The position numbers and the translations under genes were made by a program. Positions 5,420 to 54,205 of a stretch of DNA of 64,000 nt are shown here, piece after piece. The number at the start of each line of letters is the position of its first letter. Position 1 is the first letter of the stretch. Below the pieces are notes generated by a model. The model did not search any database. It was not told where the DNA came from and worked only from the letters and a program-made list of their open reading frames with translations. This DNA comes from Eledone cirrhosa (taxonomy: Eukaryota), in contig OZ024745.1 of the NCBI GenBank assembly GCA_964016885.1, positions 17,794,001-17,858,000 of the forward strand, read 5' to 3'.

Positions 5420-6240
5420 TATGGAGAAGAAGTTTATGAAACGGAAATGCGGGTATAAAGAATTTATTAGGTAACAATTGTTTCTAAATTTAGTTAAAGG
5501 GGTCAAAGTGGTACATAGTTACAGACAAGTTCTTTTTTTAAATGCATATAATGTTACCTTTTTACACCACCGTTTGCAAATTTCTATTTTATATGTTTAT
5601 ACACAAGATATGGCTTTCTATAATAATAGTACTAAACACTGTTTTCTGGACCCCTTTAGAAATAACCTGCTACTATAATAGCCCCAATAACTTGTCTGTA
5701 ACTCTGTTCCACTTTGACCCCTTTAACTAAATTTTGTCCGAACAACACCACTAGAAGAATTTACCTCCCCCGCCAAACCTAACACGCCTCATTAAGCTAA
5801 CTGCTGCCAAAACATTCTCTCCTTACAATCTCTACTAGTCTGACAGTCTTAAATCCTAGGACTCCCTCCCCCTTACTCACTTCCCTCTTCCCCTTCTCTT
5901 CCTACCTCCTTCTTTCTCTTTTATCTAGTGTATAAAATATTTTCATATCATTCCAATACAAAGGTCTGACGACATGGTGTGTTTGCTTGCAGTGTACCTT
6001 CGGTTTATGATAATATTTTTATATTATTCAAATAGCGAGGTATAGGTAACCCATACACTATAGAAACAATTGTTACCTAATACATTCTTTATACCCGCAT
6101 TTCCGTTTCATAAACTTCTTCTCCATACTTTCTCCGGATTTTAAAACACTTTATTATACGTTGAGCAATCTCCGACGTCGGTTGACTACATCCAATGCCA
6201 CTACTTAGTAACATTGGAATACAAATTTACTAATTCTTTA
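5420..6240 (+). mobile_element. PLE-derived element with nested inverted repeats
   Basis: IR 5420-5486/6061-6127 and IR about 5486-5531/5688-5733. Contains a hammerhead motif. Flanked by (TA)n. Confidence 0.65.
5962..6078 (+). ncRNA. Type I hammerhead ribozyme, long (90 nt) stem II
   Basis: aggt-CTGACGA-[c atggtgtgt...atacactat a]-GAAA-caattg-TT-acct. Confidence 0.7.
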
Positions 6241-7232
6241 TATATATATATATATATATATATATATATATATATATATATATATATATATATAAATATA
6301 TATATATATATATATGTATGTATGTATATATATATATATATATATATATATATATATATATATATATATATATATATATGTGTGTGTGTGTGTGTGTGTG
6401 TGTATGTTTGTGTGTGTGTGCGTGAGTGTGCATATATTGACAAGGCTTTACAAATATAGTAATTTATTGAACACTAAATAAAAGAAAATCTTCAAAGCAA
6501 TCTACAAATCTATATCTGGTGACCTATTCAAATGTTGCCAATATATATACGACAACTATTAGAATAAAATCCCCTTTCAAAATCTCAGATAATTGTTCAT
6601 TCTATTCGTAACATTGTGATATGGTAAACAATATAACCATGTTCACTTTCTTATGCGTTATGGGGCTGTATAATGTAAGAAACATGCCACTGTTATTTGT
6701 CATTGATCGTCGGCAAACAATAAGAAATGAATATTAGCTGGTAACAGTTTTTCATTATTTTGTATATGTACAAAATTTTCTAAGAATATTATATCTTAGA
6801 ATTAAAAAAAGAATGATAGTGCGTTTGTTGAACTCATCTCACAAAATATCCATTGTTCCGAATTACTCATGTATTTTTCTTCCAGCCAAATATTTTATCA
6901 ATACTAACATAATTCATTTCATAATTAATGTGTCAATTTGTAAGTGCATACATTGTAAATATATAGATACATACACTCATACACACACCTATATACATAT
7001 ATATATATATATATATATATATATATATATATATATATATATATATATATGATTATAATAATACTATTTATAGTTATGTATATACTATAAACAACTATAA
7101 ACAGGAAAGATCAGTAATTTCCTACTACCTTATTGCCAGTAAGCGAAATAGCTCAATGTAAGAACATCAGGTGTTTTACAGAGCAGGAACATATATTAGA
7201 TATTTATCAAAGTTGTGTTCAAATCATTTAAT

Positions 7233-7279
7233 TGCTGACAATTGTTTCTTCCAAACATTTGTTTGGAGTCATCGGAGCA
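7233..7279 (-). ncRNA. Type I hammerhead ribozyme, CCGAUGA core variant
   Basis: Minus: tgct-CCGATGA-ctccaaac aaat gtttggaa-GAAA-caattg-TC-agca. Confidence 0.65.
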
Positions 7280-8504
7280 TTATCAATGTTTGTACATATA
7301 ATTAACCCCCTATTCCACTGAACGATCATATAGATACATATCTATTGATGTTGTGAGCAACAGTCTCGTATTTACAGGGTGTACTGGATGAGACATATAT
7401 TATACGTGAACTGTACAAAAAATAAAATTAAAATTAAAAGCACAGAATGGAATACATGCGACAGATAATACAAGAGAATACTCTAATAATTACAGAGGCA
7501 TTGAGAAGGAAGCATTGAGAAAGAATGAGTACATTAGCAGTACATATGCAAGCGTGTAGAAAGTGCACATGCGTTAGTCATATATATGAGAAGGAAATAA
7601 GCAAAGGTATTATGCATATATAGATAAATAAATAAATAAATACTGCATGGTAAGCAAATATGTTAATGTATTAAAATTTAAGGCTAAGTAATATGACGAT
7701 AGTGTTCGAATTTGTGTGTGTTGAGAAAATCAAGTTATTGTAGTCCTTTCTATTACATATGTTAAATTATATTTTAGTTAATGTTTATATTGCATGTTTT
7801 AAGTTAGTTACATCAATGGATTGTAAATTGGTCTTATTGTATTCTTATTCATGGATTAGAGTTGTTCAACAGGTTGTTTTTCCAACGGTTTAACTTTCCG
7901 AAAGTTAAACCGTTGGAAAAACAACCTGTTGAACAACTCTAATCCATGAATAAGAATACAATAAGACCAATTTACAATCCATTGATGTAACTAACTTAAA
8001 ACATTCAATATAAACATTAACTAAAATATAATTTAACATATGTAATAGAAAGGACTACAATAACTTGATTTTCTCAACACACACAAATTCGAACACTATC
8101 GTCATATTACTTCCGCCATAAATTTTAATACATTAACATATTTGCTTACCATGCAGTATTTATTTATTTATCTATATATGCATAATACCTTTGCTTATTT
8201 CCTTCTCATATATATGACTAACGCATGTGCACTTTCTACACGCTTTCATATGTACTGCTAATGTACTCATTATTTCTCAATACTTATTTCTCAATGCCTC
8301 TTTAATTATTATCTGTCGCATGTATTCCACTCTCCTGTGATTTTAATTTTAATTTGAATTTGTGTACAAATCTCGTATAATATATGTCTCATCCATTACA
8401 CCCTGTAAATACGAAACTGTTGCTCACAACATCCATATATATATATGTATCTATATGATCGTTCAGTTGAATAGGAGGTTAATTATATGTACAAACATTG
8501 ATAA

Positions 8505-8551
8505 TGCTCCGATGGTTCCAAACGAAAGCTTGGAAGAAACGATTGTCAGCA
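8505..8551 (+). ncRNA. Decayed hammerhead (mirror copy of 7233-7279)
   Basis: tgct-CCGATGG-ttccaa...ttggaa-GAAA-cgattg-TC-agca. Confidence 0.45.
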
Positions 8552-51870: not shown

Positions 51871-52084
51871 TACATATATATACATATATATATATATATA
51901 AATATATATATATATATATATATATATATATATATATATATATATATATATATATATATATATATATATATATATATATATATATATATATATATATGTA
52001 TGTATGTATATATATATACGTATATATATGTATATGTATCTATATATATATATATATATATATATATATATATATATATATTTG

Positions 52085-52382
52085 ATTTAGAATGTAGCAC
52101 AATGGAAAGCATCCAGCTGATAGCTAATTCCATACACCAGAGTATAACTGTAACTATCGAATACCCTTCCAAACACCCTAACAATAGACTACCTGTATTA
52201 GACACGGAACTCTGGATTACGCTATAGACGAGAGAGCCAAAATTCTCCACTCACACTATGCTAAACCCATGGCCTCCAAATACCTGATACTCAAAAACTC
52301 AGCAATGTCAGGTAGTGCTAAGTTTAATATTATGATCGCAGACTTGGTACGAGTCATATGACCCTCCCCAAGTATAACAATA
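52085..52382 (+). mobile_element. PLE RT fragment fused to terminal motif
   Basis: [28 protein letters not shown]..; HYAKPMASKYLI..SAM. Ends in atatgaccctccccaagtataacaatat, identical to 48944-48971. Confidence 0.7.
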
Positions 52383-54139
52383 TATATATATATATATATA
52401 TATATATATATATATATATATATATATATATATATATATATATATATATATATATATATAAAAATAGATGTTATACACGGTGACACCGGTTTTATATTTG
52501 TTGTAAGCTAGAATTGGAAGGTTGTTTTAGGTGCTATATATTTAGGTTCGCTTTGTAAAATGATTGCAGACTGCAATGTGAGTGCGTTCGACAATCTTCG
52601 ATCAAATTCTTAAGAAATTCCTCGAACGCCCATACCATTGTAATAGGAGCATTAGATATTTAAAGTTGAATTATGAAGTAGTATTTAATATATATTTTAG
52701 TATCATTTTGAAATGTAAAACCGTTTTGTTTTTATTTTTGCTTTCTGCTTAAAACCTTTTAATCGTTTTGCCCAAATAACAAAAGGAAATAAATACCAGG
52801 TTATGATGTTTATTGATTTAAGAGAAGGTTTTTGGTGATGTACGACATCTTATTTACAATATCCTATAAAATATACACATTTCCATCAGACTGTTAAAGT
52901 TAGCACCAACTTTTAATTAGTTGAAGTAATTAGAAAGTTATTGAATTGTAATGGTGTTGTTCTAATACACTTTTATTATTTTAGTGAGCAAATGTGAAAG
53001 ATTTATCATTTTACACCTTATTATTTTCCATTACTATTCATTTTGTTGCATCTCGCTATGAGCAATAAATATATTTCATGGTCAAATCATCCATTAATCA
53101 TGTCACCTACATATCTCTAAAATCGTACTTCAGATCTTCATTTGTTTAAAGATCATTACCGGTCTTAAATTATGGTTATGGTTAGAAGGGACAATAAACA
53201 AATTGCAGTTCAAAAAATACGATGCCATAGAAGAAGTAAGATTTTATAGATATTTTGTATGCGTATGTATGGTACACAACGAATGTATTTTTATGTTAGG
53301 TTTAGAAAATCAATTTCGAAAGATATGTTCAAGTGTGTCTGTGTATTTGTAGCAAACAGGGTTCCCTCATATTATAATATTTCCATATTATCTTATTTAT
53401 CATTAGGTCAATTCCAAACAGAACAGACTGTATTACACCAAAGTATTCTTCAAATAGATGTTTTGAAAACCTCAAAAGAAAGTATTTATATTTCGTTTAA
53501 ATATTTTGAAAGAAAATATCAGAAGAATGAGAAGAATATTTACAATTCCCTATTTTATTGTTTATGAACTCGATTTGAAAGAATTTGTGAATTGAAAGAA
53601 ATAAAGTGAAATAATCCTGAAAAAAAAATTGCTTCTTTATGCGAATGCAGTTATTAAAATGAACAGAATTATTTCTTTTAGGATAAATTTATTTCACTTT
53701 AATGATTATTGAAAAGTGATATTTGGTGTAAAAATATTGATTTCTTATATTATCAAAACAACATATATTGGACAAGTTTACTATTGTAACACTATTATTT
53801 TGAGACAGGATTATTGTAGGTTCCTCATTTATATACATACACACACAAATACGCACATGCACACAAGCACACACACACACACACACACACACACATATAT
53901 ATATATATATATATATATGTATATATATATATATATATATATATATATATATATATATATATATATATATATATATATATATATATATATATATATATAT
54001 ATATATATGTAAAGTTATATTTAAAATTGTTGGGTTACAACTAGTAAATATTTATAACTGATATAAAAGCACTCGACAAATATTTGGAGTATATTTACAA
54101 TATTAAATAAATGGAAAACTATATTTATAAAACCATATT

Positions 54140-54205
54140 TATTTCATTATATATATTTCGGGGATATCATATTAACAATATGCTATGCCTTCATCAGACA
54201 AAATA
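54140..54205 (-). ncRNA. Type I hammerhead ribozyme in PLE terminal fragment (about 54010-54290)
   Basis: Minus: tattttgt-CTGATGA-aggcatagcatatt gtt aatatgatatcccc-GAAA-tatata-TA-atgaaata. Confidence 0.72.

What the first reader, a model, noticed from the sequence alone, without database searches (positions are those of the whole stretch)
5962..54205. Dense hidden cluster of minimal type I hammerhead ribozymes from several unrelated element families
Seen: ten motifs with the full core stemI-CTGANGA-stemII-GAAA-hexamer-TH-stemI', at 5962+, 11958-, 12576-, 13812+, 32562-, 33875+, 39092-, 44213-, 45709+ and 54140-. Variant or decayed ones lie at 7233-, 8505+, 8726-, 38285+, 48716+ and 49452-. 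Stems differ completely between families while the core is kept. Established: Penelope-like element pLTRs and retrozymes carry minimal type I hammerheads. Inference: about 16 motifs in 64 kb implies a very large, diverse catalytic-RNA load in this genome, mostly in non-coding derivatives that protein-based annotation would miss.
Basis: partly seen in the sequence, partly recalled or inferred. Interest (0 to 1): 0.85.

Follow-up and report, generated by a model that had tools for sequence, protein, structure and literature searches.

The report
Hammerhead ribozymes riding Penelope-like retroelements
The motifs are real hammerhead-ribozyme sequences at the ends of Penelope-like jumping genes, a kind described in 2014; this genome holds at least 86,000 of them, many with a constant C·C mismatch that we did not find in print, and most lone copies are likely inert.

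Summary
Real motifs, known kind, unusually heavy load. 15 of 16 listed sites are hammerhead motifs (11 pass a strict scan; shuffles give 0.1). 8726 is only the 3′ half of one. They come from 11 insertions of Penelope-like elements (PLEs), mostly of the Hydra clade, lying just upstream of (TA)n tracts. Four head-to-head pairs show the PLE tail asymmetry. Families C, E, I and J have full pLTR–ORF–pLTR copies elsewhere; B and D are non-coding 1.3 and 1.9 kb units. They are not retrozymes (0 of 53 sampled motifs in short tandems). The window is no special cluster: two exact patterns give 86,369 genome-wide matches (74 in controls), sampling suggests 130,000–270,000, and the window holds about 2.5 times the mean. 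Several 'decayed' sites are natural variants (U3–A8, U4C). New details: a C·C mismatch at helix II pair 4 (33 of 34 sampled), helix II up to 116 nt, and a family with a full helix III whose copies are mostly cut inside the ribozyme (34 of 40). Cleavage was not tested; no copy of the minimal families starts at the cut (0 of 147). The scan noted PLE hammerheads in other genomes.

The parts
5962..6078 (+). Family E hammerhead (Hydra-clade PLE pLTR): 90-nt helix II, palindrome CAAUUG, predicted cut after 6074
   Evidence: pLTR–ORF–pLTR copy in L303
7233..7279 (-). Family G hammerhead, U4C core, cut after 7237; tailed arm of the 7191–8593 fold-back insertion
8505..8551 (+). Family G hammerhead, decayed (A9G); tail-less arm of the same insertion
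8588..8800 (-). Family H element: only the 3′ half of a hammerhead (GAAA, 5-bp helix III, UC, helix I 3′ strand) plus a short inverted arm and tail; related copies at 5205–5422, 46889–47130 and 55798–55990
11956..12025 (-). Family C hammerhead (Hydra PLE), C·C at helix II pair 4, cut after 11966
12576..12633 (-). Family D hammerhead (non-coding 1.9-kb unit), C·C at pair 4, cut after 12580; tailed arm of the inverted pair 12372–13940
13812..13869 (+). Family D hammerhead, first helix I pair broken; tail-less arm
32562..32627 (-). Family B hammerhead (non-coding unit of about 1.3 kb), C·C at pair 4, cut after 32570; tail-less inverted arm
33875..33941 (+). Family B hammerhead, cut after 33933; tailed arm
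37471..37885 (+). Broken Hydra-type GIY-YIG ORF end upstream of the family I hammerhead
38287..38326 (+). Family I hammerhead, natural U3–A8 core; this copy has two point changes (helix II, palindrome); cut after 38321
   Evidence: pLTR–ORF–pLTR copy in L304
39092..39208 (-). Family F hammerhead, 88-nt helix II, palindrome CACGUG, cut after 39097, in the 3′ UTR of the ORF at 40171–41559
40171..41559 (-). 5′-truncated Hydra-clade PLE ORF (RT end, CxCx5C linker, GIY-YIG)
44213..44267 (-). Family A hammerhead (Hydra PLE), C·C at pair 4, cut after 44218; tailed inverted arm
45709..45763 (+). Family A hammerhead, cut after 45758; tail-less arm 44550–45815
48720..48757 (+). Family J hammerhead in the pLTR of a young Neptune-like PLE (48192–49016): 6-bp helix II closed by G10.1–C11.1, 2-bp helix I, cut after 48755
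49453..49497 (-). Family G-related hammerhead, U4C core, about 1.5 kb downstream of a broken Hydra ORF (50999–51831, −)
54140..54205 (-). Family C hammerhead, 99% identical to the pLTR of the full element in L172, with tail; cut after 54148

Best explanation
The motifs are type I hammerhead sequences in the terminal repeats (pLTRs) of several Penelope-like retroelement families, mostly of the Hydra clade, scattered as short 5′-truncated and often head-to-head copies beside (TA)n tracts, where most lone copies are likely inert because their palindromic helix III is predicted to form only with a second copy. Shown: the motifs, their place in the pLTR of RT/GIY-YIG elements, the inverted and tailed insertion structure, the (TA)n targets and the copy numbers. 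Inferred from published PLE work (PMC11167929, passages): the element's endonuclease nicks AT-rich DNA and reverse transcription starts at two sites downstream of the hammerhead, so every insertion longer than about 150 nt carries a hammerhead whether or not it has an ORF. That would explain the load, and the short versus long tails of paired arms. Inferred: the template RNA was uncut, because copies run through the intact motif. Self-cleavage would happen, weakly, mainly in tandem pLTR–ORF–pLTR transcripts, where two same-strand copies can share an 8-bp helix III. Non-coding units B and D would borrow the enzymes of coding families.
For: 11 hits against 0.1 shuffled. 74,832 exact matches against 74 control, and 11,537 against 0. 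Helix pairing that the search pattern did not ask for: helix II 223 of 238 pairs (strand-swap permutations mean 178, max 193) and helix I 168 of 170 (mean 144, max 158). Palindromic helix III in 43 of 53 sampled hits against 5 of 26 in shuffles. Full pLTR–ORF–pLTR copies: C (L172, 738-aa ORF, with an inverted 5′-truncated copy in front), E (L303), I (L304) and J (L302). Family A lies downstream of a GIY-YIG ORF end. The C ORF has the Hydra motifs RWR, DKT, CxCx5C, CxxC and CxH (definition in PMC8557442 section 11). 51 of 53 cuts lie within 250 nt upstream of a (TA)n tract against 23% background, in two distance groups. All 4 window pairs have one short and one long tail: 55/178, 53/149, 76/203 and 43/186 nt. 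Monomer helix III costs +2.4 to +5.6 kcal/mol, while the dimer duplex gives −2.2 to −10.3 for families A–I. 0 of 147 alignments of families A–G start within 2 nt of the cut.
Against: No cleavage or expression data. G10.1–C11.1, part of the 2014 consensus, is the first helix II pair in only 1 of 34 sampled TATRTA-type motifs and in the lead sequence of 2 of 17 multi-sequence clusters. Minimum-energy folds of 11 window stretches have weak z-scores (−2.2 to +0.9 for the 10 whole motifs), and only some show the hammerhead fold. The J duplex has no favourable energy (0.0 kcal/mol). ORF links for G and H rest on few loci. Pfam found no family for the C ORF at E≤1. The clade call rests on motifs, not on a tree.
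Confidence: 0.87

Rival explanations
1. They are non-LTR retrozymes: short non-coding tandem repeats that make circular RNAs through double self-cleavage.
For: Retrozymes carry type I hammerheads and derive from PLE pLTRs (10.64898/2026.07.22.740005, part 1 and passages). B and D are non-coding, and D occurs as 1.9-kb tandems.
Against: 0 of 53 sampled motifs have a same-strand sister within 600 nt, whereas retrozyme units are 150–450 bp tandems (PMC7229834 passages). Most families connect to RT/GIY-YIG ORFs.
Confidence: 0.04
2. The fold is kept not for cleavage but as a protein-binding or reverse-transcription signal of the PLE RNA, or as a passenger, and it never cuts in vivo.
For: Copies derive from uncut RNA. 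In an anole PLE, hammerhead mutants did not affect insertion in vitro and no RNA-seq reads ended at the cut (PMC11167929 passages). Minimal hammerheads cleave poorly even as dimers (PMC4209133 parts 1–2). The constant C·C mismatch could be a protein contact.
Against: The catalytic boxes, and the 3–8 pair with its compensatory U3–A8 form in families I and H, are kept across diverged families, which fits selection on catalysis. Helix III stays palindromic with different sequences.
Confidence: 0.25
3. The window is a functional cluster in which neighbouring hammerheads cooperate in one host transcript.
For: 11 hits against 4.3 expected (bootstrap P=0.026). Families A, B and C have compatible AUAUAUAU-type palindromes.
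Against: The 15 motifs are 11 independent insertions. Close pairs lie on opposite strands. The nearest same-strand neighbours (11958− and 12576−) have incompatible palindromes (+2.0 kcal/mol). Single sampled 10-kb stretches hold up to 5 hits, and the window was chosen for its content.
Confidence: 0.02
4. The motifs are chance matches in AT-rich DNA.
For: The genome is AT-rich, no Rfam hammerhead model scores, and fold z-scores are weak.
Against: Shuffle, reverse and whole-genome reversed-pattern controls are 50- to 1000-fold lower, and unrequested helices covary.
Confidence: 0.005

Closest known systems
Minimal hammerheads (min-HHR) in pLTRs of metazoan Penelope-like elements (Cervera & de la Peña 2014, PMC4209133; read: main text parts 1–2 of 4, supplement file 2 part 2 and passages)
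   Same: Type I core, palindromic or absent helix III, place in pLTRs, many sequence families per genome, mostly single truncated copies, opposite-strand pairs close together, the U3–A8 variant, and a 2-bp helix I in one family (as in D. virilis).
   Different: The load is at least 86,369 against about 2,000–9,000 in the genomes counted there. The usual palindrome is 6 nt. G10.1–C11.1 is mostly replaced by A-U, G·U or a mismatch. There is a constant C·C at helix II pair 4, not seen in the part of Fig. S3 that was read. Helix II reaches 116 nt, and one family has a U4C core.
Hydra-clade PLEs and their hammerheads (Craig et al. 2021, PMC8557442; read: section 11, passages, supplement part 2 with File S2)
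   Same: RWK/RWR, DKT, CxCx5C, CxxC and CxH motifs; C-terminal GIY-YIG; (TA)n targets; inverted 5′-truncated copy in front; tail; Y or mismatch at 10.1/11.1. An Octopus bimaculoides member with a hammerhead is already listed.
   Different: The listed Hydra hammerheads have perfect short helices II and 7–8 nt between GAAA and UH; none of the 26 Hydra rows shows C·C at pair 4. Units here are 3.0–4.2 kb with long 3′ UTRs, against 'generally <3 kb'. Non-coding 1.3 and 1.9 kb derivatives are abundant here.
Non-LTR retrozymes (PMC7229834, passages; bioRxiv 10.64898/2026.07.22.740005, part 1 and passages)
   Same: Type I hammerheads derived from PLE pLTRs and very high motif counts (126,247 in axolotl).
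   Different: No short tandem arrays here; the copies are dispersed, truncated or inverted.

Membership tests
PLE minimal hammerhead (Cervera & de la Peña 2014) | Type I core: helix I–CUGANGA–helix II–GAAA…UH–helix I′ | tested here: met
   11 strict hits against 0.1 shuffled; four more listed sites are variants or decayed copies; 8726 is a half
PLE minimal hammerhead (Cervera & de la Peña 2014) | Palindromic, monomer-unstable helix III | tested here: met
   43 of 53 sampled hits against 5 of 26 shuffled; energies. Family H is an exception, with a 5-bp helix III
PLE minimal hammerhead (Cervera & de la Peña 2014) | Unpaired nucleotide after A9 and conserved G10.1–C11.1 | tested here: inconclusive
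   Met in J; G–C without the extra nucleotide in I and H; G–C first pair in only 1 of 34 TATRTA-type motifs. Published Hydra hammerheads also deviate
PLE minimal hammerhead (Cervera & de la Peña 2014) | Located in pLTRs flanking an RT + GIY-YIG ORF | tested here: met
   C, E, I and J full copies; A and F downstream of ORF ends; B and D have no ORF
PLE minimal hammerhead (Cervera & de la Peña 2014) | Self-cleavage, weak and dimer-dependent | not testable with these tools
   No assay; no RNA holder listed
Hydra clade of PLEs (Craig et al. 2021) | RWK and DKT motifs, CxCx5C linker, CxxC and CxH around the GIY-YIG core | tested here: met
   C ORF: RWR38, DKT119, CNCRDRSKC597, CDLC695, CKH722; F ORF has the linker, CxxC and CxH; E ORF has RWR and the linker. 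J instead shows a CX4CxxC linker (Neptune-like)
Hydra clade of PLEs (Craig et al. 2021) | Insertion into (TA)n | tested here: met
   51 of 53 within 250 nt upstream of (TA)n against 23% background
Hydra clade of PLEs (Craig et al. 2021) | Placement in the Hydra clade by RT phylogeny | not tested
   No tree was built with the published Hydra sequences; the assignment is by motifs
Non-LTR retrozymes | Tandem repeats of 150–450 bp with one hammerhead each | tested here: not met
   0 of 53 with a same-strand sister within 600 nt; shortest tandem unit seen is 1.9 kb
Non-LTR retrozymes | Expressed as monomeric linear and circular RNA | not testable with these tools
   No RNA holder listed
Rfam hammerhead families | Score at or near the gathering threshold | tested here: not met
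   0 hits at the gathering threshold; no hammerhead family among the 150 of 182 rows shown at E≤10 or in two local scans

The most novel reading that the evidence does not exclude
This genome carries a structurally distinct, selected subclass of PLE hammerheads (C·C mismatch at helix II pair 4, about 75,000–90,000 copies, invisible to Rfam), and its insertion record shows cleavage in vivo. Family H, whose helix III can form in a monomer, survives mostly as half-ribozyme mini-elements (34 of 40 arms cut inside the motif), while the monomer-inactive families are copied whole (about 25 of 147 cut inside). On this reading self-cleavage works as a brake on PLE copying, and elements escape it by weakening or dropping the ribozyme.
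Probability: 0.22. Interest if true: 0.62.

Novelty: new variant of a known kind. Interest (0 to 1): 0.35.

Why it matters
What PLE hammerheads do is an open question; both PMC8557442 and PMC11167929 say so in the passages read. This genome offers young families with thousands of near-identical copies and natural contrasts: monomer-type (H) against dimer-type motifs, C·C against perfect helix II, U3–A8 and U4C cores, and coding against non-coding carriers. These can be assayed side by side. The exact count is about ten times the largest min-HHR count in the 2014 paper, and Rfam reports none of the window's motifs. The kind itself is known, an octopus Hydra element with a hammerhead is already published, and no activity was shown here, so the finding extends rather than changes the picture.

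Tried and rejected
Rfam gave no hammerhead match. Sequencing runs: no RNA holder listed, which is no evidence either way; read laying was not used. Genomic footprint of cleavage: 0 of 147 alignments of families A–G start within 2 nt of the cut. That count leaves out primary hits, hits under 80% identity and hits at locus edges, and overlapping loci count twice; the I and J references were offset by 4 and 2 nt and their 18 rows were set aside. For H, 3 of 198 start at or within 2 nt of the cut and none of the 40 systematic arms does. The idea that the window is rich because it has more (TA)n was rejected: it has 12.3 tracts per 10 kb against a mean of 18.1, although counts correlate across stretches (rho 0.40). 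I first judged 8726 not to be a hammerhead: the 27 CTGANGA-plus-H matches were, in the 15 viewed, fold-back turns or junctions with other sequence. One search overturned this by finding U3–A8 parents. The ORF at 47781–48188 is not J's own ORF; it belongs to another family joined head-to-head. The U3–A8 minimal scan gave mainly one satellite array (10 of 11 hits in L148) and was not used for counts. The sample overestimates the TATRTA pattern (102,000 extrapolated against 74,832 counted), so the lower part of the 130,000–270,000 range is more likely; scaling the exact counts by their share of sampled hits (31 of 53) gives about 145,000. A planned second round of systematic sampling could not be fetched, so the estimates rest on 79 stretches. 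Literature searches for the C·C feature and for cephalopod hammerhead counts found no description; figures, most subscription papers, one supplementary file of PMC4209133 and bioRxiv supplements were not visible.
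Full report
Observation. The window is AT-rich, microsatellite-laden animal DNA at G000:C5:17794001–17858000 in a 3.0-Gb assembly. The organism was not determined. The only species named among the homologue hits of one element protein is an octopod (39% identity), and the composition recalls octopod genomes (recalled, not tested). A structure descriptor finds 11 type I hammerhead motifs, against 0.1 in 100 shuffles and 0 reversed. 7233 and 49452 pass with a U4C core (14 of 15 family loci), 8505 is decayed, 38285 has a family-wide U3–A8 core (15 of 15) and 48716 is a young family with a 2-bp helix I. 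8726 is the 3′ half only. Rfam reports no hammerhead.

What carries them. Self-comparison sorts the sites into ten families, A–J. Own-genome searches for nine of them (all but F) returned 145–2,715 first-look candidates each, 40 scored per search. Family C has complete copies: in L172 a hammerhead, a 738-aa ORF and a second hammerhead lie 3.9 kb apart, preceded by an inverted 5′-truncated copy. E (L303), I (L304) and J (L302) have the same pLTR–ORF–pLTR layout. A lies about 1.3 kb downstream of a GIY-YIG ORF end, and F lies downstream of the window ORF at 40171–41559. G probably follows a Hydra ORF, at 1.8 kb in L297 and 1.5 kb at 49452. The C ORF has the motifs that define the Hydra clade in PMC8557442 section 11. 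A, C, E and F ORFs are 31–56% identical, and J is unrelated with a Neptune-like linker. B is a unit of about 1.3 kb with a shared 5′ boundary in 6 other loci and no ORF. D is a 1.9-kb ORF-less unit seen in tandem. So the 15 motifs come from 11 insertions: 8 motifs from coding families, 3 from a probably coding one and 4 from non-coding derivatives.

Insertion anatomy. In 79 systematic 10-kb stretches, 51 of 53 predicted cuts lie within 250 nt upstream of (TA)n (background 23%), mostly at 38–61 or 112–227 nt. 17 of 53 have an inverted sister within 3 kb, and 0 of 53 have a same-strand sister within 600 nt. Each of the four window pairs has one short and one long tail. This matches the inverted, tailed PLE insertions in PMC8557442 (passages), the two internal RT start sites shown for an anole PLE (PMC11167929, passages) and the opposite-strand pairs in PMC4209133. 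It excludes retrozyme arrays (PMC7229834, passages).

How many. The sample gives 53 hits in 789.8 kb (shuffles 1.1), or 44–91 per Mb by bootstrap. Exact whole-genome patterns give 74,832 (control 74) and 11,537 (control 0). These two subtypes make up 31 of the 53 sampled hits, which points to about 145,000 intact motifs. The sample overshot the first pattern by about 1.4-fold. Counts in the papers read are about 2,000–9,000 minimal motifs per genome and 126,247 type I motifs in axolotl. The window has about 2.5 times the mean (P=0.026 by bootstrap, uncorrected for selection); its flanks have 11 in 80 kb.

Structure. With a pattern that asks for no pairing, helix II positions 2, 3 and 5–9 pair in 223 of 238 cells (permuted mean 178, max 193), and helix I in 168 of 170 (mean 144, max 158). 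Position 4 is C·C in 33 of 34 sampled and 67 of 71 distinct sequences and is never paired. These sequences are related, so cells are not independent. C·C leads 8 of 17 multi-sequence clusters, including D and a CGAUCG family with helix II of 68–116 nt. It is absent from the 26 Hydra rows of File S2 of PMC8557442 and from the part of Fig. S3 of PMC4209133 that was read, and three searches found no description. Against a neat fit: G10.1–C11.1 is rare (1 of 34), and monomer folds are weak.

Family H. Full parents (L012, L114, L125/L179, L218, L262) have a 4–5-bp helix I, a UUGARAA core, a long bulged helix II and a 5-bp helix III with a 9-nt loop; the fold of L012 gives the three-way junction, while the others fold partly otherwise. 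Yet 34 of 40 arms in the 87 systematic and flanking stretches start inside the motif, 31 nt before to 10 nt after GAAA, mostly as fold-back mini-elements, compared with roughly 25 of 147 for families A–G. A strict scan found one intact H motif in 79 stretches. RT stalling in the GC-rich stems, amplification of already truncated masters, or loss of templates by monomer cleavage could each explain this; I cannot separate them. The driving ORF of H is not established.

Mechanism. Shown: position, structure, targets and numbers. Inferred: because reverse transcription starts downstream of the motif, almost every insertion carries it, and copies run through the uncut site (0 of 147 start at the cut). 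The palindromes cannot close a monomer helix III but can form a 6–8-bp duplex between two copies. Head-to-head pairs lie on opposite strands and cannot do so in cis, so most window copies are likely inert. Cleavage would be limited to tandem element transcripts or trans pairs, and published dimers cleave weakly. No RNA data were available.

Verdict. A correct catch of a known kind, with an unusual load and undescribed structural variants. Earlier scan notes report PLE hammerheads in other genomes; none concerns this genome. Papers seen: PMC4209133 (parts 1–2 of 4, supplement part 2 and passages); PMC8557442 (outline, section 11, passages, supplement part 2 and passages); PMC11167929, PMC7229834 and PMC7936874 (passages); bioRxiv 10.64898/2026.07.22.740005 (part 1 of 5 and passages; supplements closed). 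Interest 0.35.

Noticed in passing
window 47690–48188 (−) joined to 48192–49016 (+); L116:1200–1640; L128:1265–1650: Head-to-head junctions between arms of two different PLE families (another GIY-YIG family with J; family A with family H), suggesting that one insertion can occasionally use two different RNAs. Most pairs listed have matching arms.
   Followed up: partly
G000:C1, list (e.g. 13231964/13231980, 23113918/23113930, 26896745/26896754): In the CGAUCG family many head-to-head pairs join only 8–16 nt apart, just upstream of CUGAAGA, as if the template's 5′ end (start site or splice site) lay at the start of helix I.
   Followed up: no
systematic stretches L135, L141, L142, L150, L216: Another abundant family not in the window: CUGAAGA, short helix II closed by G–C, GAAA-GAAC/GGAC-UH (7 of 53 sampled hits).
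   Followed up: no
window 23127–30090 (−), 19851–22845 and 30084–31391 (+), 1789–2379 (−): Non-PLE LINE remains: two 92%-identical copies of an RT element (RVT_1) nested in a second LINE with a zinc-knuckle-like ORF1, plus a short RT fragment. The type names (RTE-like, Tx1-like) are recalled, not tested.
   Followed up: no
window 18836–19441 and 38814–38973: Further fold-back (palindromic) insertions without a hammerhead hit; possibly PLE arms of other families.
   Followed up: no
L148: Tandem satellite of a few hundred bases that matches a U3–A8 descriptor ten times; probably chance in A-rich sequence, but it is the one tandem array seen.
   Followed up: no
L290:8515–8800 and many loci: Very abundant SINE-like repeat of about 190 nt present in most sampled stretches.
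   Followed up: no
L312:2523–4529 (−): 669-codon open frame made of a 26-aa tandem repeat.
   Followed up: no
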